A stretch of DNA of 64,000 bases from an uncultured Patescibacteria group bacterium (GTDB lineage Bacteria; Patescibacteriota; Microgenomatia; UBA1400; PJMF01). Below are positions 13,812 through 27,750 of the stretch, one piece after another. The number at the start of each line of letters is the position of its first letter. Position 1 is the first letter of the stretch. The stretch spans positions 1,598-65,597 of the forward strand of contig CAJQIG010000005.1 in the NCBI GenBank assembly GCA_905478415.1, given 5' to 3'. Position numbers and translations under genes: made by a program. Below the pieces are notes generated by a model. The model was not told the origin of the DNA and did no database searches. It worked only from the letters and a program-made list of their open reading frames with translations.

Positions 13812-13861
13812 TTTTTATTTCTAGTTATGATTTCAATGTGATACAGTCGATAGTATCATAG

Positions 13862-15190
13862 TTAGCTTGCTGATGTCTCTGGGTTTTGAGGTGCTTCTGC
13901 AGGTGGTGTCTCAACAGCCGGCGAACCAGCAACTTGGCTATGCAAAATTTCTTGATGAATTTGTAGTAGTCGGTTGTATTTTGAAACACGCTCTCCTCTG
14001 TTTGGAGGTCCAAACTTGGTGTAGTCAGCCCCCACGCCAACTGCAAAGTCAGCGATAAAGTCATCATTGGTTTCACCACTGCGGTGGGACATAATTACTT
14101 GCCAGTTGGCTTCTTTTGCTAAACGAATAACTTCGATTGTTTCACTAATAGTACCTGTCTGATTTGGTTTGACGAGTACAGCATTACAAGTTTTATTTTT
14201 AATAGCTTCTGCTGTTTTTTCTTTATTTGTAGCAAGTAAACTGTCACCAACAATCTTAGTTGTTTCTCCAAGATCAGCTGTGATTTGTTTCCAAGCATTT
14301 TCATCGTCTTCCTGGAACGGGTCTTCAATATAGAAGACATGATAGAGATCTCGAAGTTTTTTATAGTACTCGACCATCTCTTTTGATGTGTATGGCTCGG
14401 ATCGATCTTTAAGTGAGTATTTGCCACCTGTATACAGTTCGCTGGCAGCTGCATCGATGCCAAAGAAGACGTCTTGAGCAAAGGTGTACGGGCTGGTTTT
14501 GATTGTTTCTACTAAAATCTCGAATACATCAGTATTACTATAGAGGTTAGGGGTGAAACCACCCACTATTCCCGTTGAGTGGATAGCTCCTTTGATATTG
14601 AGAACCTCTTCGATTTTGTGAAAGAGGGTAACGGCAATGTTTAGTGATGATTCATAATCAATGTGACTGGCAGGAATAATCTCAAATTCTTGAAGATCCA
14701 GGTTGTCAGCACCGTGTTCTCCTCCATTTATCATTGTGTAGATACAGCTAGGAATAGCGACTTCGCTTACTAACTGATATTTTTGTTGAATGTAGTAGTA
14801 GAGTGGTACGTTGAGACTGAGAGCACCAGCTTTGAGAACTGCTTGACTGGCGGCTAAAATAGAGTTTGACCCAAGTTTTGATTTATCGTTGGTGCCATCT
14901 AAGGTGACGAGCAATTGATCAATTTCAAACTGCTGGGTTGGGTCTTTACCAATGAGAGCCTGAGCAATGGTTGTATTGAGATATTCAACTGCTTTGAGAA
15001 CGCCTTTACCATTCATTCGTTCTGGATCATTATCTCTGAGTTCATGTGCTTCGTACTTACCAACAGATGTACCAGTTGGAACACTCGTGGCTACAATAGC
15101 CCCGTTATCAAGCCAGAGTGTGCATTCGACCGTTGGAATTCCTCTCGAATCCATGATTTCGCGCGCGTAGAGTCCTTGAATGAGTGGCAT
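13862..15190 (-). CDS. eno: Enolase (phosphopyruvate hydratase), with a short Pro/Ala/Glu-rich C-terminal tail
   Basis: The N-terminus MPLIQGLYAREIMDSRGIPTVECTLWLDNG is the enolase hallmark. ...VLVKPNQTGTISETIEVIRLAKEANWQVIMSHRSGETNDDFIADFAVG... is the enolase C-terminal signature. Confidence 0.93.
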   Translation of the reverse strand: MPLIQGLYAREIMDSRGIPTVECTLWLDNGAIVATSVPTGTSVGKYEAHELRDNDPERMNGKGVLKAVEYLNTTIAQALIGKDPTQQFEIDQLLVTLDGTNDKSKLGSNSILAASQAVLKAGALSLNVPLYYYIQQKYQLVSEVAIPSCIYTMINGGEHGADNLDLQEFEIIPASHIDYESSLNIAVTLFHKIEEVLNIKGAIHSTGIVGGFTPNLYSNTDVFEILVETIKTSPYTFAQDVFFGIDAAASELYTGGKYSLKDRSEPYTSKEMVEYYKKLRDLYHVFYIEDPFQEDDENAWKQITADLGETTKIVGDSLLATNKEKTAEAIKNKTCNAVLVKPNQTGTISETIEVIRLAKEANWQVIMSHRSGETNDDFIADFAVGVGADYTKFGPPNRGERVSKYNRLLQIHQEILHSQVAGSPAVETPPAEAPQNPETSAS

Positions 15191-15202
15191 ATATAGTCTT
15201 CT

Positions 15203-17038
15203 TTATAGTACGATTTTATTTGATACTGTATTTTTTTTCTCGAGTAGCGGGGCCGCTTCGTAATCTATGATACAGGCTTTTGCGAGGGGCGCAACTGCTG
15301 GGCGAACAGTGACTCCAGTCAGCCCCAGTTTGACAGCCAGGGCAACGATAGCGGGGTTATATTGTTCCATTTGTAAGAGGATCGGAAGTTCTTCTAGTCG
15401 TGCTGTTTTCTTAGATTTTTGAATTTGAGCGATGAATGTTTCAAGTAACGTTTCTAGTAACTCTATTGGGGCAGAATAGTGCTCTTGAAGTAGAGAATTT
15501 GTGGGATCAGTGCCGAGGAGGAGTTGGAGCAACGTATCAACTTGAATACTAATGCCATCGATTTTTTTGACGGGATATGCTGAAGCGTTCAATATATTTT
15601 CGGGAGTGGTTACCTGCCACCAGAGTTCGAATTGTGGGGTTGGTAGCGCAGCTTCTGCAACTTTTACAATAATTCTCTGTAGCTCTTCTGGTGAGCGAAC
15701 AAAGGGTAGTAGAAGGCCAATTGTTGTTGATGAGTGTTGACAGTATTCTTTAAGTGTTTCAAGCTCTAGGTCAAAAAGATCTGGTTGAGAGAGCTGCTTG
15801 TAGGCTCCTCTTGTCCCGACCCAAGGATTTTGTTCAACCGATTCATACGTAGTTGCATGCTCAAGTTTTGAGAGTTCGTTCGAGGGGAAATCGAAACTTC
15901 TATACAGAATTTTTTTAATCTGAGGAAATGAGTTGAAGGTTTGGAGTGTATGAATGAGAGAGTGTTTAAGTAAGTTTCGCTTGTGACCACGAACCAAAGC
16001 GTGAGGATGTGTTCCGTATTTCAGAATCGAGTACTCACTTTTTAAGAGACCAATGCCAGCTATTGGTAGATCTGTATAAGTAGCAGATCTCTGAGGATTA
16101 CCTGCAGATGCGTACACTTGAGTGATGCTTTTTTGTTCAGAATCGAGGTGTTCATATTCGGCAAAATCTGAAATTGCGGTGATTGCAATGTTATTTTCAA
16201 GCAATGCCCACGATACTTTTTTGTGATCTAGGTGTTGCTTTTTAATACTGTTAACGATGTGAGCGATTTCAACTATCTGAGAATTGCTGAGGTGATGTCT
16301 TGATTGCTTTGAGGCTCCAAAGAGAGATGTCTTTTTGGGTGAAAGTCCGATCTTTTTTTTGATAACATTCCAGGTTCTGATATCGACTTCATAGCTATTT
16401 GAGTACTCAGACTCATGGTTTGCGTGGTCTGTTTGGTTACTGACAATATAGACTGTAGTTTTAACACCAGTTCGAGGATGTTTGGTAAAGGCAGTTCCAT
16501 GAGCAGCAGAAACAATATACTCACGTACAACTAGAGGAGAAGTGAAAAGGGCTGTGTGAATTTCCTTTTGTTTCGTTTGTAAGATGTGAGTAAGCACAAT
16601 CTGACTCCACTCTTCTAGCAAAGTGAGAAAAAAGTTGGTGTCACCGGTGGTTTTTTTTGTAGTAACGGAATTTGTGGAATTATTTGAAGAGAAAACAGAG
16701 ACTGCTTGTCCCAAAAAATAGTCATGATAGACCTGATGGAGTTCTTGAAGAATTGGGCTTGGGATTTTTGATCGAGTGATGATGTTTTTAACACTCTTTT
16801 GTAAGTGTGTCACAGACACTGGATCATGGAAATTTGTTTCTTTAAGAAGTAAGCCCAGTTTTTTTGTAAGTGTATTAGCGTCTGCAATAGCCTGGAGAGT
16901 ACTAAGTGGAATAATGGCGGTTTTAGGAATACTAAAATGCAACTTGAGGAGAGTAAGCTGTTTTGCTCCAAAAACACCAACGGTCGGTTTGGAGACGCGT
17001 GAAAAATCTCTGGGCAGGAGAACGAAACAATTTTTCAT
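15203..17038 (-). CDS. PEP-utilising enzyme family protein (pyruvate,phosphate dikinase / PEP synthase-like). I could not see the canonical phospho-histidine GGRTSHAAI motif.
   Basis: The N-terminal region resembles the PPDK/PEP-synthase nucleotide-binding domain. The C-terminal region (IGLLKSEYSILKYGTHPHALV...GLLLPFVRSPEELQRI...) resembles the PEP-utilising TIM-barrel domain. The gene lies between eno and pgi. Confidence 0.5.
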   Translation of the reverse strand: MKNCFVLLPRDFSRVSKPTVGVFGAKQLTLLKLHFSIPKTAIIPLSTLQAIADANTLTKKLGLLLKETNFHDPVSVTHLQKSVKNIITRSKIPSPILQELHQVYHDYFLGQAVSVFSSNNSTNSVTTKKTTGDTNFFLTLLEEWSQIVLTHILQTKQKEIHTALFTSPLVVREYIVSAAHGTAFTKHPRTGVKTTVYIVSNQTDHANHESEYSNSYEVDIRTWNVIKKKIGLSPKKTSLFGASKQSRHHLSNSQIVEIAHIVNSIKKQHLDHKKVSWALLENNIAITAISDFAEYEHLDSEQKSITQVYASAGNPQRSATYTDLPIAGIGLLKSEYSILKYGTHPHALVRGHKRNLLKHSLIHTLQTFNSFPQIKKILYRSFDFPSNELSKLEHATTYESVEQNPWVGTRGAYKQLSQPDLFDLELETLKEYCQHSSTTIGLLLPFVRSPEELQRIIVKVAEAALPTPQFELWWQVTTPENILNASAYPVKKIDGISIQVDTLLQLLLGTDPTNSLLQEHYSAPIELLETLLETFIAQIQKSKKTARLEELPILLQMEQYNPAIVALAVKLGLTGVTVRPAVAPLAKACIIDYEAAPLLEKKNTVSNKIVL

Positions 17039-17097
17039 TGCTAATACTATACTACCTTACTTAGGACAAAGGTTAAAGACCCCAAGCTGTCATATGG

Positions 17098-18183
17098 TTA
17101 ATAGTCTTGGCTCTGTTCTTTTAGTTTTTCTTTGAATGAGTCGACAAAAGGAATGGGACTTGGATCGATCCCTTCAAGCATGGCAATGTAGAAACTGCAA
17201 AAACTAAAGAGTGAAATCATCTCAAATGCCTGTTCAATTTTAGTGGCTGACTTGAGCGGTACCGCTGTTGTTTCAATCTCATTTTCTTCAACAATGTGTT
17301 GTGTTAATTTCATTCGCAGACTCACTTTAGGTGGGTATAAGACTGAGGTTACAAATACAAAGAAATGGGTTGAAGCATTACTTTTCGGAAACTTGAGTCC
17401 TTCCATCAGATGGTGGTTAATCTCTGGAACAACTTTATAGTTGACGAATACTTTTCCGTTTTCATTGTGTTGGTTAGCACTGACATGCGCAACTCCCTCA
17501 AGAAATTCTCCGGCTACGATGAACGGTTGTCTATCCATCATGAGGAATGCTAAAGTTTTTGCAGGGTTCGATTCGGCTGGAACTTCGACAGTGCACCCAG
17601 CAACTTGTGTATCAATTGCTTTGATAACTGCAGTAACATCTTCATCAGAAACACTGATGAGACCAGCTTTTTCAAGTAATCCAATAGTTCCAAACACTGA
17701 GTATCCAATGGCCATACGCGGTTGCTCTGATGGGTTGTGTACGGGGTCTATTTTGTAGTAGGTATAGCCTTTTTCTTGAGCAAGGTCAGCTAAAGCTCCA
17801 CCAGCACAAATAACCATAATCTGAGCTTGTTTTGCTTCAGCTTCTTTAGCTGCCGAGAGCACTTCTTCAGTAGTGCCTGAATAGCTAGAAAGAACCACTA
17901 GGGTGTGTTGGTCAACATAGTTAGGTAGTGAGTAGGTGCGATTGATGTAGAGTGGCACTTTCATTTGTTCTTTGAACAGGTGCAGGATGACATCTGCACC
18001 CAGCGCTGAGCCTCCCATTCCGGCTACAACAACATTGCGGATTTCGTCTTTGGCAGTGAATTGAACTTTTTTTAGCTCTTGCCAAGCATGTTCAATTTGT
18101 TTGCCGAGGGCTTCGATTGAACCGAGCATATTTGAGTTATCAAGCTGTGCAATTTCTTCTCGTGAATCAATGATACTAGCCAT
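17098..18183 (-). CDS. Bifunctional phosphoglucose/phosphomannose isomerase (archaeal-type SIS-domain PGI/PMI)
   Basis: SIS-domain motif VVAGMGGSALGADVILHLF and a second SIS-like half. Length ~360 aa. Adjacent to the mannose/glucose-1-P genes. Confidence 0.7.
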   Translation of the reverse strand: MASIIDSREEIAQLDNSNMLGSIEALGKQIEHAWQELKKVQFTAKDEIRNVVVAGMGGSALGADVILHLFKEQMKVPLYINRTYSLPNYVDQHTLVVLSSYSGTTEEVLSAAKEAEAKQAQIMVICAGGALADLAQEKGYTYYKIDPVHNPSEQPRMAIGYSVFGTIGLLEKAGLISVSDEDVTAVIKAIDTQVAGCTVEVPAESNPAKTLAFLMMDRQPFIVAGEFLEGVAHVSANQHNENGKVFVNYKVVPEINHHLMEGLKFPKSNASTHFFVFVTSVLYPPKVSLRMKLTQHIVEENEIETTAVPLKSATKIEQAFEMISLFSFCSFYIAMLEGIDPSPIPFVDSFKEKLKEQSQDY

Positions 18184-18194
18184 ACGTTCCTTTC

Positions 18195-19469
18195 CTATTC
18201 TGTTTCTATTGGTTCGTGTTCTGTATTTTTTGAAATGGTTGTAGCTGGGTGAACGAACGTTCGCGCCCCCAGTAAAATCCCCGGCATAGCTCGCACGCTA
18301 ATACCTAGATTGGCATATGCTCCGATAATGACACCTTGCCTATTTGAGGGCAGCGTGACCATTGACCCTTTGAGTTGGGTCCGGATAGGTGCCCGGTCAA
18401 GTCGTTTATTCGCTGTAATCAGACCTGCACCAACCTTTACTCCCTGGCCTAAGATTGAGTCTGCTAGATAGCCAAAGTGAATCGATGCTTTTGGTAGTAA
18501 AATTGCCCGCACGACTTCTGTGTTGGCTCCAACAGTAGCGCCAGCTTCAATACTACATTCGCCCCGAACAAAACAGTAGTCACCTACCATTGCCTCGGAA
18601 CCGATGTAACAAGGACCCACTATTTTTGCGAAGTCTCCGATTCTTGCTCCAGCTTTGATAATAATGGGGCCGGCTGAGTCATCGAGGACGGCAGTGGTAC
18701 TGATGTTTGCTTCTGGACTGATACTGGTTTTTTGATTTTCGAAGAGGTGAGAAAGCATCTCAAAAAGGTGCCAAGAATATTTGAGACTTGGTAGTTCTTC
18801 GGTATTTTCAACCCAAGTGACGACATGGTCTTTTGCGAAAGATGTTAGAGCTGCTTCAAGTGAGTACTCCTCTTGAGGAGTAGTTTCTAAGTGAGCCATA
18901 AAGCTTTTAGAGAGGAGATAAATGCTATTAATTTTATAGTTCGAAGGAGCATGTTCTTGGGGTTTTTCGACTATGCCGATAACTCGATTAGCATGCTCTG
19001 GATCAAACTCAAACATGCCATACAGAGAAGGGTTCTCGACTTGTGTACCCATAAAAACACATTCACTCTGCTCTGTTTGCTGTGAGTGCCAGAGTTCTTC
19101 TGCTAGTTCACCCGCATTTGTATAGTACGGTGACAGCATGATGAAGTGCTCAGTTTGCAGGTGTGCAGTGGCAGTTAAGAGCGCTTGCCCTGCTCCTTGT
19201 GCATCAGGTTGTAGTGTCCAAGATATGTTTGAGTTGAGATTATATTTTGTGATCTCAGCACTGAAACCTTTACCTTGAAAATCTTTTTCGGAGACAACAA
19301 TCACGATATCCATGAAGCCATGTGCTTCGAGATTTCTGAGAGTGCGAATGATAATTGGTTCGCCTAAAAGTGGCAAACAACCTTTGTGAGTTTCAGTATT
19401 GAGAGGAAAAAAGCGACTATTTTTACCAGCGGCTAGGATGACAACTGTGGGCTTTTGAGTTTCGTTCAT
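18195..19469 (-). CDS. Sugar-1-phosphate nucleotidylyltransferase with a C-terminal left-handed beta-helix (GlmU / ManC-like bifunctional architecture)
   Basis: N-terminal VVILAAGKNSRFFPLNTETHKGCLPLLGEPII (NTP_transferase G-rich loop). The C-terminal half is full of hexapeptide repeats (IGDFAKIVGPCYIGSEAMVGDYCFVRGECSIEAGATVGANTEVV...). Confidence 0.75.
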   Translation of the reverse strand: MNETQKPTVVILAAGKNSRFFPLNTETHKGCLPLLGEPIIIRTLRNLEAHGFMDIVIVVSEKDFQGKGFSAEITKYNLNSNISWTLQPDAQGAGQALLTATAHLQTEHFIMLSPYYTNAGELAEELWHSQQTEQSECVFMGTQVENPSLYGMFEFDPEHANRVIGIVEKPQEHAPSNYKINSIYLLSKSFMAHLETTPQEEYSLEAALTSFAKDHVVTWVENTEELPSLKYSWHLFEMLSHLFENQKTSISPEANISTTAVLDDSAGPIIIKAGARIGDFAKIVGPCYIGSEAMVGDYCFVRGECSIEAGATVGANTEVVRAILLPKASIHFGYLADSILGQGVKVGAGLITANKRLDRAPIRTQLKGSMVTLPSNRQGVIIGAYANLGISVRAMPGILLGARTFVHPATTISKNTEHEPIETE

Positions 19470-19528
19470 ACGTCTACTATACCATTCTTTTTTGTCTTCT
19501 CCAGATGTGTTAGGCAGTTCTAATCTGT

Positions 19529-19561
19529 GGAGGGGCAGGCGGCACAGCCGCCTGCCCCTCC
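19529..19561. repeat. Perfect GC-rich 14-bp-stem hairpin (GGAGGGGCAGGCGG-cacag-CCGCCTGCCCCTCC) immediately downstream of the phosphomannomutase gene. It lacks an obvious U-tract.
   Basis: An exact inverted repeat read directly from the sequence. Its GC content is far above the local background. It sits 30 bp past the stop of the 19592..21013 gene. Confidence 0.5.
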
Positions 19562-19591
19562 AACGTACCTGTTGCTACTGTATGTCTTTGT

Positions 19592-21013
19592 CTAGTCAAG
19601 CGCGTGAGTATTCACGCCTTGAGTCCAGTCAACCTCCGGATATTTTTTAAGCATGGTTCGAAGAATAGTTTTGACATGGTCATATTGTTCTTGAGTTTTA
19701 CCTTCGAACTTGACTGTAATATAGGGACCATTCTGTGAAGCTCTGATAATAGCCATTTCATTTTGGGTATCCATACGGATACCATCGATGTCGATATATT
19801 TTGCATCTGGCCATTGGGCTTTAAACTCATCCTTTATTTTTGTTTGGATGAACTCAAATTTTATATCATCAGCTAAGCCGAACTTTATCTCTGGACTCGA
19901 GATATAGACGGAAAGTTGTCCGGCGGCTTCAGAGAGGGTTTGCTTTTTTCTTTCGAGGTATTGAAGCAGTCTCAAACTAGCGTAGGCGCCATCATCATGA
20001 CCGTAGAAGTTATCCATAAAGAAAATATGTCCAGAAAGCTCTCCTCCAAAGGGAGCGCGGACCTCTTTTAGTTTGGCTTTGATAAAAGAGTGGCCGGTCA
20101 TCCACATGACTGGATCGCCACCAGATTTTTCGATAGCTTCAGTTACTTGTCGTGAGCAGAGCGTGTTATAGACAATTTTTGAACCCGGCATGAAATCAAG
20201 CACGTCTTGTGCAAACAGTGCTACGATCGAGTCCATCCAAAGTACTTGACCTTTTTCGTCAACAACAGCCATGCGATCACCATCAGTGTCATAGGCAAAG
20301 CCAATATCAGCTCCAGCTTTTTTAACACCAACAGCGAGTCTATCGAGAACCTCAACTTCTGTTGGATCTGGAACTCCCATTGGGAAGTTACCGTCGAGTT
20401 CTGTATTTTGTTCGACCACCTCGCAACCCATGGCTCTAAAAATTTCAGGGTAAAATTTTCCTGAGGTGGTGTTACAAGCATCGATGACAATTTTCCACTT
20501 TTTTTGTAAGTCAAAGTGTTTAATGATATCGGCTTTATAGGCTGGAAAGACATCTTCTTCTCTATTGGTTCCTTTGCCTTCTACAAACTCACCTTTGTCA
20601 CAGAGTTCGCGTAAATACTGAATTTCTTCAGTAATCATGGTGTCAGAATAACCAACACCAAGTTTGAGTCCATTGAATTCTTTTGGGTTGTGAGAGGCGG
20701 TAACCATGGCGCCACCTTTTGTTTTAAATTCATATGAAGAAAAATACACGATTTGACTCAAAGACAATCCCATGTCGATGGTATCAATACCGCCGTCATT
20801 GAGACCGGCAATGAAAGCCTTTGAGTAGACTTCTCCAGTTAATCGATTATCTCTACCAATAGTAGCTTCTTGAATTCTTCTTTGGTGTAAGAAGGTAGCG
20901 TATGCTCGGCCGAGTGTGTAGTAGACATCTTCGCTCAGGTCCACATCAGCAACTCCGCGGAGGTCATAGCCCCTAAAAATTTTAGGATTTATTTTGGAAA
21001 CTAATTTGTACAT
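19592..21013 (-). CDS. Phosphomannomutase/phosphoglucomutase (alpha-D-phosphohexomutase)
   Basis: Active-site motif GGAMVTASHNPKEFNGLKLG (phosphoserine loop T-A-S-H-N-P). Mg-binding FAYDTDGDR. Sugar-binding GGELSGHIFF. Confidence 0.88.
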   Translation of the reverse strand: MYKLVSKINPKIFRGYDLRGVADVDLSEDVYYTLGRAYATFLHQRRIQEATIGRDNRLTGEVYSKAFIAGLNDGGIDTIDMGLSLSQIVYFSSYEFKTKGGAMVTASHNPKEFNGLKLGVGYSDTMITEEIQYLRELCDKGEFVEGKGTNREEDVFPAYKADIIKHFDLQKKWKIVIDACNTTSGKFYPEIFRAMGCEVVEQNTELDGNFPMGVPDPTEVEVLDRLAVGVKKAGADIGFAYDTDGDRMAVVDEKGQVLWMDSIVALFAQDVLDFMPGSKIVYNTLCSRQVTEAIEKSGGDPVMWMTGHSFIKAKLKEVRAPFGGELSGHIFFMDNFYGHDDGAYASLRLLQYLERKKQTLSEAAGQLSVYISSPEIKFGLADDIKFEFIQTKIKDEFKAQWPDAKYIDIDGIRMDTQNEMAIIRASQNGPYITVKFEGKTQEQYDHVKTILRTMLKKYPEVDWTQGVNTHALD

Positions 21014-21078
21014 ACGAGTCCTTTCGTGCCGAAGTTGGCTCCAAGAATTTTTTTGTATGATAAAGTATGATACTTAAT

Positions 21079-21759
21079 TTACACCCCTAGCGTGAAAAGA
21101 TCAAGCTGGGATTGTAATGGCAAGGCTAGCCGGGAGGTTTTTGCTTTTTCATCAAGCTCAACCAATTTGGTATGAAGATGTATGAGTTGTGTTTCAGTGA
21201 AATTGTGTGCTTGTTTTTTGTACTTTGAGACCATAAACGGGGGTCCTTTAATGGTGCCACCTGTTTTTGCTAAGAGGAGTAAGCGAATATGGCGAACTAA
21301 CATCAAAAAACAAAGGTACTCACCATCTTTGAGGATGGCCTCATGTAAAAGGGAAAGTTTTTTTTGAGGATTTCCCTGTGATCCAAAGAGGTCTAGCCAA
21401 GCAAATAAAGCATTGCTGGTTTTGAACTCAGATGCTTGTGCTTGAGGGAATTTTTTTAACATTGTTGGGGTCAGTGCTCTTTTTTCCCAAAGGATGACTT
21501 CGTGTGGTGTTTCTTGTTCTAACAGACTCAAGAGTTCCTTTTTGCGGGCTGAGGTTGGGAGTGAATGCAGCGCTTCAATGACAATCCCCTTTTGTGTTCC
21601 AAAAAGATCACTCTCTCCCAGTGCCGATTCAAGTTCTGCTCGGGAAAGTGGCTTGGCATCAAAACGAACAACTTTTTTACCCTGTTCTTTGAGATTTGAT
21701 AGGTGTGAAGTTAGTTTTTCTCTGGAGGCTACGATGTTATCACCGTGTAAAATAATCAT
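21079..21759 (-). CDS. Possible DNA polymerase III delta subunit-like protein (short form)
   Basis: The N-terminus MIILHGDNIVASREKL resembles HolA N-termini (MIYLLYGED.f...). Confidence is weak and rests only on this pattern and the size. Confidence 0.35.
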   Translation of the reverse strand: MIILHGDNIVASREKLTSHLSNLKEQGKKVVRFDAKPLSRAELESALGESDLFGTQKGIVIEALHSLPTSARKKELLSLLEQETPHEVILWEKRALTPTMLKKFPQAQASEFKTSNALFAWLDLFGSQGNPQKKLSLLHEAILKDGEYLCFLMLVRHIRLLLLAKTGGTIKGPPFMVSKYKKQAHNFTETQLIHLHTKLVELDEKAKTSRLALPLQSQLDLFTLGV

Positions 21760-23081: not shown

Positions 23082-23166
23082 GCCGAAGTGGCGGAATTGG
23101 TAGACGCGCACGGTTTAGGACCGTGTAGAGCAATCTGTGGAGGTTCAAGTCCTCTCTTCGGCACCA
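23082..23166 (+). tRNA. tRNA-Leu (anticodon TAG), type II long variable arm, CCA encoded
   Basis: Cloverleaf read by eye. Acceptor GCCGAAG/CTTCGGC. Anticodon stem CACGG/CCGTG with loop TTTAGGA. Long variable arm. T-arm GGAGG-TTCAAGT-CCTCT. 3' end ACCA. Confidence 0.85.
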
Positions 23167-23725: not shown

Positions 23726-24427
23726 TTAGAGTTGTGGCTCGATTTGTCCAGAACCTGATCCTTCAGAAGTAAACTCGAGGAGATAAGCACTATCAGCTTT
23801 GTTTTCTTGCCCGAGAACTCGATCATCGTAGCGCATTTCTGACATCCATTGATTAACTGATCGAGCCCAGGAACCATCACTGCTGGGTGTGTACTTCTTC
23901 ATAATTAGTTCAGGAGTGACTCGACCTTGGTCAATATAGTAAGCTTTGAGTTCTCTCGCTGCTCTCTCAAAGTTAGCTTCGTAGCTCTCAAATCCTAAAG
24001 TACCGCGTTCATGAATACCAAAGCCAAGACAATTATATGAGCCTGGAGGGATTCTCTTGCAGAGATTACTCTCTTGCATGGCAATTGCAGGCAAAAGTCT
24101 GAAGTCGATATCGTATCGGTCTGCGATTTCGACAATAGCTACACCATAGTAATCATATGGCTTCAGGGGGGAGTTATAGCGCTCTAAAAAGTTAGCAATG
24201 ATCAGTGGGCGGGCGTCGCCAGCTTCCAAGTAGGTTTTGAATTCGAGGTTATCTTCGTAATCAGCAACATCGTCGAGTGATGTCTCGACAACTTTGATAC
24301 CACTCATCTCAGAAGTAAAGTCTAAAAAATCTGGATTTATAGAATAAAAATTATATCCAGCTATGACGGTTAAAATCATTCCTGTGGCTAGAAATATCCA
24401 TGAAAATGCGTAAAATAAAGACTTCAT
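23726..24427 (-). CDS. Membrane-anchored lytic transglycosylase (SLT-domain)-like protein
   Basis: N-terminal TM. LLPAIAMQESNLCK resembles the SLT catalytic-Glu motif (A.a.qES.f). Confidence 0.45.
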   Translation of the reverse strand: MKSLFYAFSWIFLATGMILTVIAGYNFYSINPDFLDFTSEMSGIKVVETSLDDVADYEDNLEFKTYLEAGDARPLIIANFLERYNSPLKPYDYYGVAIVEIADRYDIDFRLLPAIAMQESNLCKRIPPGSYNCLGFGIHERGTLGFESYEANFERAARELKAYYIDQGRVTPELIMKKYTPSSDGSWARSVNQWMSEMRYDDRVLGQENKADSAYLLEFTSEGSGSGQIEPQL

Positions 24428-24498: not shown

Positions 24499-25557
24499 TT
24501 GATATCCTATAATAGTATGAAACTATATACCAGTTTAGCTCGTATTGCCTTTTCACTGACTCTAGTGGTGAGTCTTTTCGTGGCTACTCTTTCTCAAGTT
24601 GCTGCAGTTGCTTCAATTCCAGCAGGTATTCATATTCTTCGTATTGAAGAAGTGACTGAGGCGGCAGAGCTGACTCAGGACATGGGAGTTGATGATGTGT
24701 GGACCTATGTCACCATTCCGTTTACTTTAGCAGACCTCGATCGGCCGCAAGAATGGCAAGACTTTTTTGATACCGCAGCTTCTAAAAAAATGATTCCACT
24801 TGTTCGCTTAACAACAGCATTTGAAGATGAATCCTGGAATGTGCCAACTAAGAAAAATATTGTTGATCAAATTACTTTTCTTTCAAAGTTACAGTGGCCA
24901 ACTGACAAAAAGCATATTATCGTTTTTAACGAAGTCAATCACTCTAAAGAATGGGGAGGCACTGTTGATCCGGAAGAATATGCGAGACTTTTTGCGTTTA
25001 CTGCAAACTGGGCCCATACCGAAGAACAAAACTTTGTGGTGTTGCCTGCAGCACTTGATTTAGCGGCTCCGAATGGTCGTAGCACAGTAGAAGCCTTCAC
25101 CTTTCTTTCTCAAATGGAAGCGTCCCATCCCGATGTACTTTTACTCGCTGATGCTTGGAACTCACATTCCTATCCAAATCCTGGTTTTTCAGCTTCTCCA
25201 CAACGAAGTGGGCAAAACTCTCTGAGTGGTTTTAAGCTAGAACTCGCATGGTTGCAAGAACATACTGGCAAGGAGTTTCAAGTGTATATAACTGAGACTG
25301 GTTGGGATGTTTCTGGTTCACTCGATCGCTGGATGGCCTCTTATTATCAATATGCAGTCAGTCATATTTGGAGTGATCCGTCTGTTGTGGCTGTGACGCC
25401 TTTCATTTTACAAGGTTCACCAGGCCCTTTTTCAGGCTTCAGCTTTTTGGATGAAACGGGGGAGCCAACAACACAGTATGTTGCTTATCAAAAGGCATTG
25501 AAAAATCACTATGCACCTTCAGACTTTCTGTTAGCAAAAATACAAGTAATTGAGTAA
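24499..25557 (+). CDS. Secreted glycoside hydrolase, clan GH-A-like (GH5-like (beta/alpha)8)
   Basis: A signal peptide. IVFNEVNHSKEWGG is an NEP-type acid/base motif (here NEV). VYITETGWD is the ITE nucleophile motif of clan GH-A. Confidence 0.5.
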   Translation: MISYNSMKLYTSLARIAFSLTLVVSLFVATLSQVAAVASIPAGIHILRIEEVTEAAELTQDMGVDDVWTYVTIPFTLADLDRPQEWQDFFDTAASKKMIPLVRLTTAFEDESWNVPTKKNIVDQITFLSKLQWPTDKKHIIVFNEVNHSKEWGGTVDPEEYARLFAFTANWAHTEEQNFVVLPAALDLAAPNGRSTVEAFTFLSQMEASHPDVLLLADAWNSHSYPNPGFSASPQRSGQNSLSGFKLELAWLQEHTGKEFQVYITETGWDVSGSLDRWMASYYQYAVSHIWSDPSVVAVTPFILQGSPGPFSGFSFLDETGEPTTQYVAYQKALKNHYAPSDFLLAKIQVIE

Positions 25558-25612
25558 TTAATTTATACACTATCTTGACAGAAGTAAGAAAAAATCATAT
25601 AGTTGCCCTACC

Positions 25613-26425
25613 ATGGGAAAAAAACGCCTTACCATTACCCTTTCCGAAGAAATTGTTAAGAAAGTTGACAAGTATATCGATGGTGTCCAAATTCGAAACC
25701 GTTCGCACGCAATTGAAAGTCTGTTAGAACAGAGTTTCTCCCCTTCTATTGATACAGCCGTAATTTTAGCTGGTGGCCTTGAAGCCACAAAGGATAGTCC
25801 AGCTCTCAAAAAAATGAGTGATCGCTACGTGTTAGCAATTACTTTAGAAAAACTCCGTGACGTTGGTATTGACCAAGTTGTGATCTGTGCGGGTCAACTG
25901 ACCCCTCAAATTAAGGCCATTTTTGGTTCTGGAGCAAGCTATGGTGTCGACTTAGTCTACACAGAGGAACAAGAGCCTCTGGGGACGGCTGGGGCCCTTA
26001 AATTAGCTGAACGTTATCTTGTTGGCGAGCCATTTTTAGTGATTCATGCTGATGTGCTCAGTGATTTAGATTTTGGATCACTTGTTGAGTTCCATTTGAG
26101 TGAGAATACTTTGGCTACGATTGCCGTTAAACCAGCGATGGGTACGAAAGAGTATGGTCACGTGTACTTAGCAGGAAATAGAATTGTAGAGTTTTCAGAT
26201 TCAAGTGAAAAAAAAGGTATCAGTATTATTAATACTGGTATGTATGTGCTTGGTCCAGAAGTTTTAGACGCAATTGCTCCTCATTCTAAACTCTACTTAG
26301 AAAAAGATATTTTTCCACAACTAGCAGCTACGGGTGAATTAAGTGCATTCTTATTTCAGGGCTACTGGTTTGATGTTACTAAAGATACGACCTTTGCTGA
26401 AGCTGCTGATGCTTGGGAACTGTAG
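25613..26425 (+). CDS. Fusion protein: an N-terminal ribbon-helix-helix (CopG/NikR-like) DNA-binding domain plus a sugar-nucleotidyltransferase-fold domain with a degenerate G-rich loop
   Basis: The N-terminus MGKKRLTITLSEEIVKKVDKYIDGVQIRNRSHAIESLLEQSF is a textbook RHH (the KRLTITL beta-strand and the RSHAIESLL helix). It is followed by AVILAGGLEATKD... and ...EPLGTAGALKLAERYLVGEPFLVIHADVLSDLDF..., which is the NTP_transferase fold. The canonical GGxGTRL has become GGLEATKD. Confidence 0.6.
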   Translation: MGKKRLTITLSEEIVKKVDKYIDGVQIRNRSHAIESLLEQSFSPSIDTAVILAGGLEATKDSPALKKMSDRYVLAITLEKLRDVGIDQVVICAGQLTPQIKAIFGSGASYGVDLVYTEEQEPLGTAGALKLAERYLVGEPFLVIHADVLSDLDFGSLVEFHLSENTLATIAVKPAMGTKEYGHVYLAGNRIVEFSDSSEKKGISIINTGMYVLGPEVLDAIAPHSKLYLEKDIFPQLAATGELSAFLFQGYWFDVTKDTTFAEAADAWEL

Positions 26426-26871: not shown

Positions 26872-26954
26872 AGTTGATGAGGTTTATTTTACCAGATTAG
26901 TGGTAGTGCTCTTTTTAGTACAAAACCGTCAACAAGTGTCGACGGTTTATTTTG

Positions 26955-27026
26955 AGCGGGAGACGGGGTTCGAACCCGCGACCTCTTCCTTGGCAAGGAA
27001 GCGCTCTACCACTGAGCTACTCCCGC
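26955..27026 (-). tRNA. tRNA-Gly (anticodon GCC)
   Basis: The reverse complement reads GCGGGAGTAGCTCAGTGGTAGAGCGCTTCCTTGCCAAGGAAGAGGTCGCGGGTTCGAACCCCGTCTCCCGCT. The anticodon loop is TTGCCAA. Confidence 0.88.
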
Positions 27027-27293
27027 AGATGTTGATCTAACATTCAGAATTATACAACCTGATGCTGATCTTGTGAATAAGTGTCTGAGGTCGTATAGTA
27101 CACATATGAACAGAAATCCCCTCACATCACCAGAAATGAACCGACAAATGGGCAAAGCTACCGATAATGGGCTTAAGTTTTTCTTCAAGTGGTTTGGGAT
27201 TGCAGTTACAGAACTTGTTAAGTTTATTAAAGTGTTGGTTTCTTCAGCAATGGGAAAATAATTTTTTTCAAAAATTTTTCAAATAAAGATGTG

Positions 27294-27366
27294 TGCCAAG
27301 TTCAGGAATCGAACCTGAATCTCATGTTTTTCAGACATGCGCCGTAACCACCTTGGCTAACTTGGC
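27294..27366 (-). tRNA. tRNA-Phe (anticodon GAA)
   Basis: The reverse complement reads GCCAAGTTAGCCAAGGTGGTTACGGCGCATGTCTGAAAAACATGAGATTCAGGTTCGATTCCTGAACTTGGCA. The anticodon loop is CTGAAAA. Confidence 0.85.
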
Positions 27367-27399
27367 ATCTTTGTATCAAGAAAAGATACTTTTTTTCTG

Positions 27400-27472
27400 T
27401 GGAATGTAAGGGACTCGAACCCCTGACCCTTCGGATGTAAGCCGAATGCTCTACCAACTGAGCTAACATTCC
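27400..27472 (-). tRNA. tRNA-Val (anticodon TAC)
   Basis: The reverse complement reads GGAATGTTAGCTCAGTTGGTAGAGCATTCGGCTTACATCCGAAGGGTCAGGGGTTCGAGTCCCTTACATTCCA. The anticodon loop is CTTACAT. Confidence 0.88.
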
Positions 27473-27479
27473 ATTTTTG

Positions 27480-27560
27480 TGCCCAGGAGAGGAGTTGAAC
27501 CTCCACACCTTGCGGCATACGCACCTCAAGCGTACGTGTATACCATTTCACCACCTGGGC
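27480..27560 (-). tRNA. tRNA-Leu (anticodon GAG), long variable arm
   Basis: The reverse complement reads GCCCAGGTGGTGAAATGGTATACACGTACGCTTGAGGTGCGTATGCCGCAAGGTGTGGAGGTTCAACTCCTCTCCTGGGCA. The anticodon loop is TTGAGGT. Confidence 0.8.
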
Positions 27561-27662
27561 ACTTTTAAAAGAGCATGTAGTGTGTGAAATCACAGACTAC
27601 AAGGCTTGTATTATAAAATACTTTCACCTTTTTCGGAAGTACGGCTTCTGCCGATTTTCAGG

Positions 27663-27750
27663 TGGTGCCAGAGATGGGAGTCGAACCCATACGCCCGTAA
27701 TTGAGCACTAGTTCCTGAAACTAGCCTGTCTACCATTTCAGCACTCTGGC
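27663..27750 (-). tRNA. tRNA-Leu (anticodon CAG), long variable arm, CCA encoded
   Basis: The reverse complement reads GCCAGAGTGCTGAAATGGTAGACAGGCTAGTTTCAGGAACTAGTGCTCAATTACGGGCGTATGGGTTCGACTCCCATCTCTGGCACCA. The anticodon loop is TTCAGGA. Confidence 0.8.

What the first reader, a model, noticed from the sequence alone, without database searches (positions are those of the whole stretch)
25613..26425. Ribbon-helix-helix DNA-binding domain fused to a sugar-nucleotidyltransferase fold with a degenerate catalytic loop
The first ~45 residues form an unmistakable RHH (KRLTITL strand, RSHAIESLL helix). The rest is an NTP_transferase fold whose glycine-rich loop GGxGTRL is replaced by GGLEATKD, so it is probably catalytically inactive. 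This looks like a transcription factor that senses a nucleotide-sugar or sugar-phosphate through an enzyme-derived ligand-binding domain. Several sugar-nucleotide genes lie nearby (18195..21013). I am not aware of this architecture being characterised.
Basis: partly seen in the sequence, partly recalled or inferred. Interest (0 to 1): 0.55.

Follow-up and report, generated by a model that had tools for sequence, protein, structure and literature searches.

The report
NikR-like repressor with dead sugar-nucleotide enzyme sensor
This gene, annotated everywhere as a sugar-nucleotide enzyme, is most likely a DNA-binding repressor whose enzyme-like half has lost its catalytic residues and serves as a metabolite sensor, and its conserved binding site sits in front of sugar-activation and glycolysis genes in tiny-genome (CPR) bacteria.

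Summary
The ORF 25613..26425 (+, 270 aa) is real. Its first ~45 residues are a ribbon-helix-helix (RHH) domain. The family profile matches E. coli NikR (4e-7) and CopG.

The rest is a confident NDP-sugar pyrophosphorylase fold, closest to GDP-mannose pyrophosphorylases. Across 149 relatives the phosphate-binding loop is 7 residues short and hypervariable. Two further conserved lysines, including the EKP-motif lysine, are mostly lost. Base- and sugar-contacting residues stay 73-99% conserved, so the domain looks like a pseudoenzyme sensor.

New here: a tandem repeat, GTATGAnnnnGTATGA, lies just upstream of the family gene in five phyla. Its half-site is the same as E. coli NikR's. In Patescibacteria it also precedes pgk, glpX and the phosphomannomutase gene.

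In this window an exact copy (21055-21070) sits 5 nt after the conserved promoter of a six-gene run: PMM, GlmU-like NTase, PGI/PMI, PEP-synthase-like, enolase, iPGM. The window's own gene has no significant operator.

The ligand (possibly a GDP-hexose) and the direction of the response are inferred. No description of the family was found, and source annotations that carry a name call it an enzyme or hypothetical.

The parts
25613..26425 (+). Gene for the 270-aa RHH + nucleotidyltransferase-like protein
   Evidence: ORF list. More than 120 full-length homologs at 44-75% identity.
25619..25747 (+). Ribbon-helix-helix DNA-binding domain (residues 3-45). It has the beta-strand KRLTITL with R5, T7, T9 invariant, and helices at 12-22 and 30-41.
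   Evidence: RHH_1 scores 21.0 bits on the isolated domain. The family profile hits NikR and CopG. AF2 predicts the two helices. R5/T7/T9/R30/S31 are 149/149 conserved.
25754..26416 (+). NDP-sugar pyrophosphorylase-like (NTP_transferase fold) domain, residues 48-268, proposed sensor
   Evidence: PF00483 at 2.9e-25. AF2 pLDDT is mostly about 90 across this domain, lower (70-85) at residues 41-70 and 171-210. Foldseek top hits are VTC1, GMPPB, MurU and HddC at E ~1e-20, TMq 0.70-0.75.
25769..25813 (+). Degenerate, shortened phosphate-binding loop (A53-K67: AGGLEATKDSPALKK). It replaces the canonical GGxGTRLxPLTxxxPKP.
   Evidence: Alignment A1. Loop median is 18 vs 24 residues, with no GxG[TS]R in 225 of 230 RHH-bearing relatives. 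Entropy is 3.3-3.8 bits at positions 56-62.
26198..26206 (+). Degenerate 'EKP' motif (D196-S197-S198). The sugar-phosphate-binding lysine is replaced by serine.
   Evidence: HMMER alignment to GMPPB and VTC1: FSDSS against FVEKP. Lys is kept in only 20 of 149 relatives.
25575..25603 (+). Promoter-like site of the gene itself: TTGACA, 17 nt, TATAGT, ending 9 nt before the ATG
   Evidence: Consensus scan gives 11 of 12 matches. No significant GTATGA operator lies here.
21055..21070 (+). Predicted operator: exact tandem repeat GTATGAtaaaGTATGA. On the PMM-sense strand it reads TCATACtttaTCATAC and ends 41 nt upstream of the PMM start codon.
   Evidence: Exact match. PWM score is 28.2 bits against a maximum of 17.5 in 50 shuffles. 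Exact matches expected per window: 0.008. The same position is conserved in 10 other Patescibacteria genomes.
21076..21104 (-). Inferred promoter of the PMM operon: -35 TTGATC (21104-21099), 17-nt spacer, -10 TAAATT (21081-21076, overlapping the holA stop codon). The operator begins 5 nt downstream.
   Evidence: Conserved TTGAYC-17-TA(A/G)(A/G)TT in 11 aligned genomes. The consensus scan reports an alternative instead, TTCACG-18-TATCAT.
12120..21013 (-). Proposed target operon: PgmG-like PMM/PGM (19592-21013), archaeal-GlmU-like NTase/acetyltransferase (18195-19469), bifunctional PGI/PMI (17098-18183), PEP-synthase-like (15203-17038), enolase (13862-15190), iPGM (12120-13811)
   Evidence: Pfam and NCBIfam assignments. 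All six are on the same strand with short gaps. Operon status is inferred.
21170..21185 (+). Second exact GTATGAagatGTATGA inside holA, about 100 bp upstream of the first. Doubtful auxiliary site.
   Evidence: Exact match, but the PWM score is only 13.8 bits and it is not conserved in relatives.

Best explanation
The gene encodes a one-component transcriptional repressor. Its N-terminal NikR-like ribbon-helix-helix domain dimerises. Two dimers are proposed to bind side by side on a tandem repeat of GTATGA hexamers spaced 10 (sometimes 11) bp apart. That repeat lies at or just downstream of the -10 element, so binding would block transcription initiation. The C-terminal domain descends from a GDP-mannose-pyrophosphorylase-like enzyme. 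It has lost the phosphate-handling and catalytic residues but kept those that hold the base and the hexose. It is therefore proposed to bind a nucleotide-sugar as a sensor and modulate DNA binding; the ligand is most likely a guanine nucleotide-sugar such as GDP-mannose. In this genome the target is the PMM / GlmU-like NTase / PGI-PMI / PEP-synthase-like / enolase / iPGM gene run. In related Patescibacteria the targets are the gene itself plus pgk, glpX, fba and iPGM. This links the sugar-nucleotide pool to the supply of hexose phosphate. Shown here: the two folds, the pattern of residue loss and retention, the conserved operator and its positions. Inferred: that this protein binds the operator, that binding represses, the ligand identity, and that the ligand acts as co-repressor.
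For: RHH: (NikR 4e-7, CopG 5e-4; RHH_1 in 24 of 25 members). NTase fold.

Pseudoenzyme pattern: the G-loop is 7 residues shorter and hypervariable. The EKP lysine is kept in 13% and the lysine matching VTC1 K196 in 28%. In contrast E119 is 97% conserved, G124 99%, G182 98%, N207 93%, E230 96%, W252 97% and D254 90%. These positions map through the HMMER alignment onto the GDP-mannose contacts of VTC1 described in PMC9168903. E119 occupies the base-specificity position, equivalent to RmlA Q83. PDB entry 3pkq is titled 'Q83D variant of RmlA with dGTP'.

Operator: 41 of 63 family genes carry GTATGAnnnnGTATGA (at most 1 mismatch) within 150 bp upstream. PWM hits number 63, of which 62 are on the gene's strand. 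The hits span Patescibacteria, Chloroflexota, Acidobacteriota, Planctomycetota and Zixibacteria. The half-site equals the E. coli NikR half-site GTATGA (PMC7055735 and PMC545781). The family keeps an R-x-T-x-T strand that aligns with NikR's RVTITL.

Context: in 24 Patescibacteria loci the gene is directly followed by glpX-fba, fba, iPGM or PMM, or directly preceded by pgk; in 2 more iPGM is its divergent upstream neighbour. Operators follow TTGACA-17-TATAAA promoters upstream of pgk. They lie between holA and PMM in 11 genomes including this window.
Against: There is no experiment of any kind. The window's own gene and its closest relatives (L009, L010) lack a significant operator upstream, so autoregulation is not universal. 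The nucleotidyltransferase in the target operon looks UDP-GlcNAc-type (Arch_glmU), not GDP-mannose-type, so the guanine-sugar guess does not follow from the pathway. The window protein retains K231, and 13-28% of relatives retain one or other lysine, so residual activity cannot be excluded. The RHH part of the AF2 monomer model has low confidence (pLDDT 53-62), as expected for an obligate dimer. Operon structure is inferred from gene order only. Some operator copies contain TATGAT, which resembles a -10 box. Many loci, however, have a separate -10 upstream of the repeat.
Confidence: 0.72

Rival explanations
1. The protein is a DNA-binding regulator, but the enzyme-like domain binds no small molecule. 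It serves as an oligomerisation scaffold, or docks onto a partner protein such as an active nucleotidyltransferase, much as GMPPA docks onto GMPPB. Another possible partner is the small conserved-tail peptide encoded downstream in other phyla.
For: The phosphate-binding loop is lost. Non-CPR relatives carry a co-oriented small ORF with a conserved C-terminal tail, DLLGDFSEQTGAFFG. GMPPA works within a complex with GMPPB (PMC9168903; abstract of PMC11228364).
Against: The residues that contact base and hexose in VTC1 are the most conserved positions of the domain. That is hard to explain without a nucleotide-sugar-like ligand. The window genome has no such small ORF after the gene. The LbH domain that mediates GMPPA-GMPPB contacts is absent.
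Confidence: 0.13
2. The protein is a bifunctional 'trigger enzyme'. It would be a still-active sugar-1-phosphate nucleotidyltransferase that also binds DNA, like PutA or BirA, using an unconventional loop.
For: More distant RHH-fused relatives keep a complete GxGTR...PKP loop and EKP (P0135, P0173 and others), so active fusions probably exist. The window protein has K60, K66, K67 and K231, which might substitute.
Against: Loop positions 56-62 are close to random across 149 close relatives. The loop is 7 residues shorter. The EKP lysine is Ser or Thr in most, and the lysine matching VTC1 K196 is Thr in most. Catalysis in this superfamily depends on these residues (PMC9168903).
Confidence: 0.08
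3. The protein is an ordinary sugar-phosphate nucleotidyltransferase, as annotated, and the N-terminal extension is irrelevant.
For: Source annotations say 'sugar phosphate nucleotidyltransferase' or 'mannose-1-phosphate guanylyltransferase'. The Pfam NTP_transferase hit is strong.
Against: The N-terminus is the most conserved part of the protein and is a bona fide RHH. A conserved operator with the NikR half-site precedes the gene in five phyla. Catalytic motifs are missing.
Confidence: 0.03
4. The RHH acts as a toxin-antitoxin style antitoxin fused to a nucleotidyltransferase-like toxin or effector.
For: RHH domains are common in antitoxins. There are weak HicB-like antitoxin Pfam hits.
Against: The gene has stable, syntenic housekeeping neighbours across minimal genomes and sits in operons with glycolytic genes. 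The C-terminal fold is that of sugar-nucleotide pyrophosphorylases, whereas the nucleotidyltransferases known from toxin-antitoxin systems are of the unrelated minimal-nucleotidyltransferase kind (from established knowledge, not tested here).
Confidence: 0.02

Closest known systems
NikR (nickel-responsive RHH repressor, E. coli)
   Same: It is the best structural-database match to the RHH (4e-7). It has the same R-x-T-x-T recognition strand and the same DNA half-site, GTATGA (PMC7055735, PMC545781). It shares the overall logic of an N-terminal RHH plus a C-terminal ligand-sensing domain, with the end product or ligand acting as co-repressor.
   Different: NikR's sensor is an ACT-like nickel-binding tetramerisation domain, whereas here it is a nucleotidyltransferase fold. 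NikR half-sites are inverted and 16 bp apart. Here they are direct repeats 10-11 bp apart. The regulon is nickel uptake in NikR and sugar or central carbon genes here.
GMPPA (catalytically inactive paralogue of GDP-mannose pyrophosphorylase GMPPB)
   Same: It is a member of the same enzyme fold that has lost catalysis and works as a GDP-mannose sensor for feedback control (PMC11228364 abstract; PMC9168903). GMPPB and VTC1 are the closest structural matches to the window domain.
   Different: GMPPA acts allosterically on an enzyme complex through its LbH domain. It has no DNA-binding domain and is eukaryotic. Here the output would be transcription.
CggR / SorC-family central glycolytic genes regulator (Bacillus) and other enzyme-derived sensor regulators (PurR of B. 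subtilis, RpiR/SIS, ROK/NagC). This comparison comes from established knowledge.
   Same: A repressor encoded within or beside glycolytic operons (gap-pgk-tpi-pgm-eno in Bacillus). It uses a catalytically dead, enzyme-derived sugar-phosphate-binding domain as sensor.
   Different: There is no sequence or fold relationship: those use a winged-HTH plus a deaminase- or isomerase-like fold. The DNA motifs also differ.
Sugar-1-phosphate nucleotidyltransferases (GMPPB/VTC1/ManC, MurU, HddC, RmlA)
   Same: Same fold (TMq 0.70-0.75) and conserved base- and hexose-contact residues.
   Different: The window protein lacks the GxGTR...PKP signature loop and the EKP lysine, and carries an RHH domain.

Membership tests
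Ribbon-helix-helix (CopG/NikR-type) DNA-binding domain | Sequence-profile match to RHH families | tested here: met
   RHH_1 scores 21.0 bits against a 20.5 cut-off on the isolated domain, and 24 of 25 family members match. The family profile hits NikR at 4e-7 and CopG at 5e-4.
Ribbon-helix-helix (CopG/NikR-type) DNA-binding domain | N-terminal beta-strand with alternating polar residues followed by two helices | tested here: met
   The strand R5-L-T7-I-T9-L is invariant in 149 of 149. Helices at 12-22 and 30-41 appear in the AF2 model. The strand itself is not formed in the monomer model.
Ribbon-helix-helix (CopG/NikR-type) DNA-binding domain | Obligate dimer that binds repeated DNA subsites | not testable with these tools
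   Indirect only: a conserved tandem GTATGA repeat lies upstream of the gene in five phyla.
NikR family | C-terminal ACT-like nickel-binding tetramerisation domain | tested here: not met
   The C-terminal domain is an NTP_transferase fold. NCBIfam NikR hits cover residues 4-41 only and fall far below the cut-off.
NikR family | Operator half-site GTATGA recognised by the RHH | tested here: inconclusive
   The same hexamer is found in the predicted operators, but the arrangement differs (direct repeat, 10-11 bp). Binding was not tested.
Sugar-1-phosphate nucleotidyltransferase (PF00483) enzymes | Rossmann-like NTP_transferase fold | tested here: met
   PF00483 at 2.9e-25. Foldseek E ~1e-20 to VTC1, GMPPB, MurU and HddC.
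Sugar-1-phosphate nucleotidyltransferase (PF00483) enzymes | N-terminal signature loop G-x-G-T-R-x(n)-P-K that binds NTP/PPi (VTC1 G9, T12, R13, K23) | tested here: not met
   The loop reads GGLEATKDSPALKK. It is 7 residues shorter and hypervariable in the family.
Sugar-1-phosphate nucleotidyltransferase (PF00483) enzymes | EKP-motif lysine and the second lysine (VTC1 K163, K196) that contact the sugar-1-phosphate | tested here: not met
   S197 replaces the first lysine (kept in 13% of the family). K231 is present here but kept in only 28% of the family.
Sugar-1-phosphate nucleotidyltransferase (PF00483) enzymes | Enzymatic activity | not testable with these tools
   This needs an assay.
Pseudoenzyme nucleotide-sugar sensors (GMPPA-like) | Catalytic residues lost while the ligand pocket is conserved | tested here: met
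   Entropy is 3.3-3.8 bits in the loop against 0.06-0.7 bits at the near-invariant contacts E119, G124, G182, N207, E230, W252 and D254; H145, D147 and Y181 are about 1.0-1.1 bits.
Pseudoenzyme nucleotide-sugar sensors (GMPPA-like) | Binds the nucleotide-sugar | not testable with these tools
   This needs ITC, DSF or a structure.

The most novel reading that the evidence does not exclude
This may be the founding example of a widespread, unrecognised family of transcription factors. It occurs in Patescibacteria, Chloroflexota, Acidobacteriota, Planctomycetota and Zixibacteria, with about 100 clusters at 50% identity. A NikR-type RHH module would have been recombined with a dead GDP-sugar pyrophosphorylase. 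In CPR bacteria the family would be the master repressor that couples the nucleotide-sugar pool to gluconeogenic/glycolytic and sugar-activation operons, through a GTATGA tandem-repeat operator. That would be, as far as I know, the first central-metabolism regulon inferred for these unculturable organisms.
Probability: 0.45. Interest if true: 0.75.

Novelty: new variant of a known kind. Interest (0 to 1): 0.66.

Why it matters
Candidate Phyla Radiation bacteria have minimal genomes and, to my knowledge, very few recognised regulators, and none can be manipulated genetically.

This work gives a conserved repressor, its operator sequence and a coherent target set: pgk, glpX, fba, iPGM, PMM, a GlmU-like NTase, PGI/PMI and enolase. 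That makes regulation of their central carbon and cell-envelope sugar supply testable in vitro and in heterologous hosts.

It would also correct the annotation of hundreds of proteins now labelled as enzymes. That matters for metabolic reconstructions, which would otherwise count them as GDP-mannose or NDP-sugar synthases.

More generally it adds a clean example of a pseudoenzyme recruited as a sensor. Relatives span fully intact to fully degenerate catalytic motifs. It also illustrates modular exchange of sensor domains on a NikR-type DNA-binding head that keeps its DNA half-site.

Tried and rejected
Only GTAAGAaaaaaTCATAT (25584-25600) resembles an inverted pair. With 2 mismatches it is no more than chance (2 found, 2.5 expected). 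The PWM gives no hit above the reporting cut-off of -5 bits in the 120 bp before the gene.
- **Second exact repeat inside holA (21170-21185).** It is not conserved in 10 syntenic genomes and has a low PWM score, so it is treated as doubtful.
- **Promoter for PMM.** The scan gave TTCACG-18-TATCAT. The comparative alignment favours TTGATC-17-TAAATT.
- **Context of relatives with intact catalytic loops (P0173, P0135).** The contigs are only ~1.2 kb and show no GTATGA repeat, so they are uninformative.
- **AFDB fold search.** This was meant to look for named examples of the architecture, but the library was unavailable.
- **Literature.** Searches for RHH plus nucleotidyltransferase or pyrophosphorylase, CopG plus NTP_transferase, and Patescibacteria plus RHH plus regulator found nothing relevant.
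- **fba, glpX and pgk in the window.** None was found within these 64 kb, so their operators could not be checked in this genome.
- **Frameshift rescue of the loop.** Rejected, because all homologs share the short loop in frame.
Full report
**Observation**

The ORF at 25613..26425 (+) encodes 270 aa, exactly as described.

Pfam assigns NTP_transferase (PF00483, 2.9e-25, residues 51-266). It gives a sub-threshold RHH_1 hit at residues 5-40 (18.4 bits against a 20.5 cut-off). NCBIfam adds weak matches to the N-terminus of NikR.

The RHH call becomes firm with family information:
- The isolated N-terminus scores 21.0 bits for RHH_1.
- 24 of 25 family N-termini match RHH_1.
- A profile of residues 3-47 (alignment A2) finds three PDB matches. 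These are the RHH of E. coli NikR (4e-7; QRVTITLDDDLLETLD...NRSEAIRDIL), P. horikoshii NikR (1.7e-4), and CopG (5e-4; KKRLTITLSESVLENL).

An AlphaFold2 model built on 36 sequences has mean pLDDT 82.7 and pTM 0.78. Across residues 48-270 pLDDT is mostly about 90. It predicts helices at 12-22 and 30-41. The low confidence of residues 1-45 is expected for an obligate-dimer domain modelled as a monomer.

Foldseek against the PDB ranks GDP-mannose pyrophosphorylases first (VTC1 7x8k, human GMPPB 7d74; E ~1e-20, TMq 0.70-0.75). MurU, HddC and RmlA follow.

**A family of pseudoenzymes**

The protein is not an oddity.
- The word-indexed search returns more than 120 full-length relatives of about 270 aa at 44-75% identity.
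- The exhaustive search returns 109 clusters (at 50% identity) with E <= 1e-30, most covering residues 1-270.
- In GTDB species representatives the family occurs in Patescibacteria (Pacebacteria, Woesebacteria, Microgenomates, Paceibacterota). It also occurs in Chloroflexota (Anaerolineae, Promineifilaceae, Ardenticatenaceae), Acidobacteriota (Thermoanaerobaculia), Planctomycetota and Zixibacteria. The closest relative is a Candidatus Pacebacteria MAG at 72% identity.
- Sources name these proteins 'sugar phosphate nucleotidyltransferase', 'mannose-1-phosphate guanylyltransferase/phosphomannomutase' or 'hypothetical'.

I aligned the window protein with canonical enzymes found in the same search. 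Where those have GGxGTRLxPLTxxxPKP, it has GGLEATKDSPALKK.

Among 245 relatives with and without RHH, the picture is as follows:

| Class | Count | Median loop length | EKP motif |
|---|---|---|---|
| RHH-bearing, no GxG[TS]R motif | 225 | 18 | mostly lost |
| Canonical enzymes | 15 | 24 | EK kept in all listed (Pro often replaced) |
| RHH-bearing, complete loop | 5 | 24 | intact |

Intermediates also exist: P0137, P0182, P0194 and P0222. The series runs from apparently active RHH-enzyme fusions to the fully degenerate subfamily that contains the window protein.

In 149 close relatives the conservation pattern is sharp.
- Loop positions 56-62 carry 3.3-3.8 bits of entropy.
- S197 aligns with the Lys of EKP in GMPPB and VTC1. 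It is Lys in only 20 of 149.
- K231 aligns with VTC1 K196. It is Lys in only 42 of 149.

The VTC1 structure paper lists the GDP-mannose contacts and calls Glu195-Lys196, Asp111 and Asp219 catalytically critical. It places PPi on Gly9, Thr12, Arg13 and Lys23 (PMC9168903). Through the HMMER alignment, the base and sugar contacts map onto the window protein as follows:

| VTC1 residue | Role | Window residue | Conservation in family |
|---|---|---|---|
| residue 80 (acidic) | guanine N1 | E119 | 97% |
| G85 | guanine O6 | G124 | 99% |
| N109 | contact | H145 | 73% |
| D111 | catalytic | D147 | 81% |
| Y145 / G146 | contact | Y181 / G182 | 78% / 98% |
| N173 | contact | N207 | 93% |
| E195 | catalytic pair with K196 | E230 | 96% |
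| W217 | contact | W252 | 97% |
| D219 | catalytic | D254 | 90% |

So the pocket for base and hexose is under strong selection, while the phosphate-handling residues are free to drift. This is the signature of a ligand-binding pseudoenzyme.

E119 sits at the base-specificity position, equivalent to RmlA Q83. A PDB entry retrieved here is titled 'Q83D variant of RmlA with dGTP'. That fits an acidic residue selecting guanine.

**The operator**

I extracted the 110 bp upstream of every family gene. Almost every gene with its own intergenic region is preceded by a tandem direct repeat, for example aaaGTATGAcaaaGTATGAcac. It ends a median of 22 bp before the start codon.

41 of 63 loci have it with at most 1 mismatch. 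The consensus is aaaGTATGAyAAAGTATGAyA.

A PWM scan of 64 loci of about 12 kb each gives 63 hits at 16 bits or more. Of these, 62 are on the strand of the family gene and nearly all are intergenic. In shuffles of the 64-kb window the best score averaged 11.5 and never exceeded 17.5.

In Chloroflexota and Acidobacteriota the repeat lies 6-10 bp downstream of a recognisable TTGACA-17-TAnnnT promoter. It therefore sits over the transcription start. This also shows the repeat is not merely a -10 box.

The hexamer is the same as the E. coli NikR half-site: GTATGA-N16-TCATAC (PMC7055735) and GTATGAT-N13/14-ATCATAC (PMC545781). The family's invariant R5-x-T7-x-T9 strand aligns with NikR's R-V-T-I-T.

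The DNA-binding head most similar to this family thus recognises the very hexamer found repeated in front of the family's genes. That is the strongest indirect evidence that these repeats are its binding sites.

**The regulon**

I clustered the neighbours across the loci. In Patescibacteria:
- the gene is followed on the same strand by glpX-fba in 10 loci, fba alone in 4, iPGM in 6 and PMM in 2;
- it is preceded by pgk in 9 loci;
- it is divergent from iPGM in 2 loci.

pgk-led operons carry an 11-bp-spaced version of the repeat immediately after TTGACA-17-TATAAA. Extra copies lie between the family gene and glpX in L019 and L023.

In the lineage with the window's gene order (PMM, holA, YgjP-like..., a 240-aa membrane protein, a 350-aa secreted protein, then the RHH gene), a copy lies a few bases after the holA stop codon, immediately upstream of PMM. 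This holds in 11 genomes whose flanks have otherwise diverged.

**In this window**

The window contains two exact matches to GTATGAnnnnGTATGA, against 0.008 expected.

The first, at 21055-21070, scores 28.2 bits on the PWM. It is the conserved PMM site. On the PMM-sense strand it reads TCATACtttaTCATAC. It begins 5 nt after an inferred -10 (TAAATT, 21081-21076), which is paired with a -35 (TTGATC, 21104-21099). It ends 41 nt before the PMM ATG at 21013.

Downstream on that strand, with short gaps, lie six genes:
- PgmG-like PMM/PGM
- an archaeal-GlmU-like nucleotidyltransferase/acetyltransferase
- bifunctional PGI/PMI
- a PEP-synthase-like protein
- enolase
- iPGM

The second match (21170-21185, inside holA) is weak on the PWM and is not conserved, so I treat it as doubtful.

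The window's own gene has a near-consensus promoter, TTGACA-17-TATAGT at 25575-25603, ending 9 nt before the ATG. It has no significant operator. The same holds for its nearest relatives L009 and L010. In this clade the regulator therefore seems to be expressed constitutively.

fba, glpX and pgk are not within these 64 kb.

**Mechanism**

Shown here:
- the two folds;
- the selective loss of catalytic residues with retention of the pocket;
- the conserved operator;
- its promoter-proximal placement in front of the family gene and of sugar and glycolytic genes.

Inferred:
- RHH dimers bind the two hexamers side by side, one helical turn apart, and occlude the start site.
- The nucleotidyltransferase-like domain binds a nucleotide-sugar and alters DNA affinity or dimer-dimer cooperativity.
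- The ligand is a guanine nucleotide-sugar such as GDP-mannose. I put this at roughly one in three. The operon's own NTase looks UDP-GlcNAc-type, so UDP-sugars, sugar-1-phosphates or GDP/GTP remain open.
- The ligand acts as co-repressor, giving end-product feedback on hexose-phosphate supply and sugar activation.

**Comparison and novelty**

The protein works like NikR, with the same head, the same half-site and a ligand-sensing tail. It also works like GMPPA, a dead GDP-mannose pyrophosphorylase used as a GDP-mannose sensor. It plays the role that CggR plays for glycolytic operons in Bacillus. It is a member of none of these families:
- It lacks NikR's nickel-binding domain.
- It lacks GMPPA's LbH domain and enzyme partner.
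- It shares no fold with SorC-type regulators.

It should not be filed as a functional sugar-1-phosphate nucleotidyltransferase, because the signature loop and the EKP lysine were tested and are not met.

Four literature searches found no description of this architecture or operator. That library is incomplete, so prior description cannot be excluded.

I rate it a new variant of a known kind: a one-component repressor with an enzyme-derived sensor. It is of above-average interest because of its breadth, its misannotation, and the testable regulon it gives for CPR bacteria.

Noticed in passing
L026, L027, L028, L033, L034, L036, L042-L045, L047, L052, L056, L060, L073 (immediately after the family gene, roughly -52 to +16 nt from its stop codon): In non-CPR phyla the RHH-NTase-like gene is followed, often with overlap, by a 52-80 aa ORF. 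Its N-terminus is variable and its extreme C-terminal tail is conserved..DLLG(D/N)(F/Y)SEQTGA(F/L)FG. It is absent from the window. A few CPR members have a different tail, W..(L/F)SNMSPDD(F/H)E, either as a separate ORF (L018) or fused to the regulator (P0120). It may be a partner or ligand-mimic peptide.
   Followed up: partly
window 24499..25557 (+) and 23726..24427 (-): A 352-aa protein with a signal-peptide-like N-terminus and a 233-aa membrane-anchored protein have no Pfam hit. They are nevertheless conserved directly upstream of the regulator gene in about 20 Patescibacteria genomes (clusters 1 and 2). Their function is unknown. In several genomes the operator lies between the 350-aa gene and the regulator.
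   Followed up: partly
window 21170..21185 (+), inside holA: A second exact GTATGAagatGTATGA lies about 100 bp upstream of the conserved PMM operator. It is specific to this genome. It could be chance or an auxiliary site.
   Followed up: partly
Proteins P0135, P0173, P0182, P0184, P0194, P0217, P0222; loci L088, L089: More distant RHH-NTP_transferase fusions keep a complete GxGTR...PKP loop, and mostly EKP as well. Their RHH strand is R-x-S-x-T, and the two loci read show no GTATGA repeat upstream. They may be active 'trigger enzyme' ancestors of the degenerate subfamily.
   Followed up: partly
window 26954..27750 (-) and 23082..23166 (+): A cluster of five tRNA genes (Gly-GCC, Phe-GAA, Val-TAC, Leu-GAG, Leu-CAG) lies just downstream of the regulator gene, and a tRNA-Leu(TAG) lies upstream. 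Several ORFs listed in these stretches are translations of tRNA genes, not real genes.
   Followed up: no
P0048, P0062, P0087, P0126, P0127 (N-termini): Some database gene models for family members begin with MTKYD.., MRKYD.. or MKKYD... This is the operator itself (ATGACAAAGTATGAC) translated. Gene callers have probably extended the ORF into the operator.
   Followed up: no
window 15203..17038 (-): A 611-aa PEP-utilising protein sits between PGI/PMI and enolase. It has only a partial PPDK_N domain and a PEP-binding C-terminal domain. Its scores are far below the PEP synthase cut-offs (137 bits against 598). It is an atypical, shortened PEP synthase or PPDK-like enzyme.
   Followed up: no
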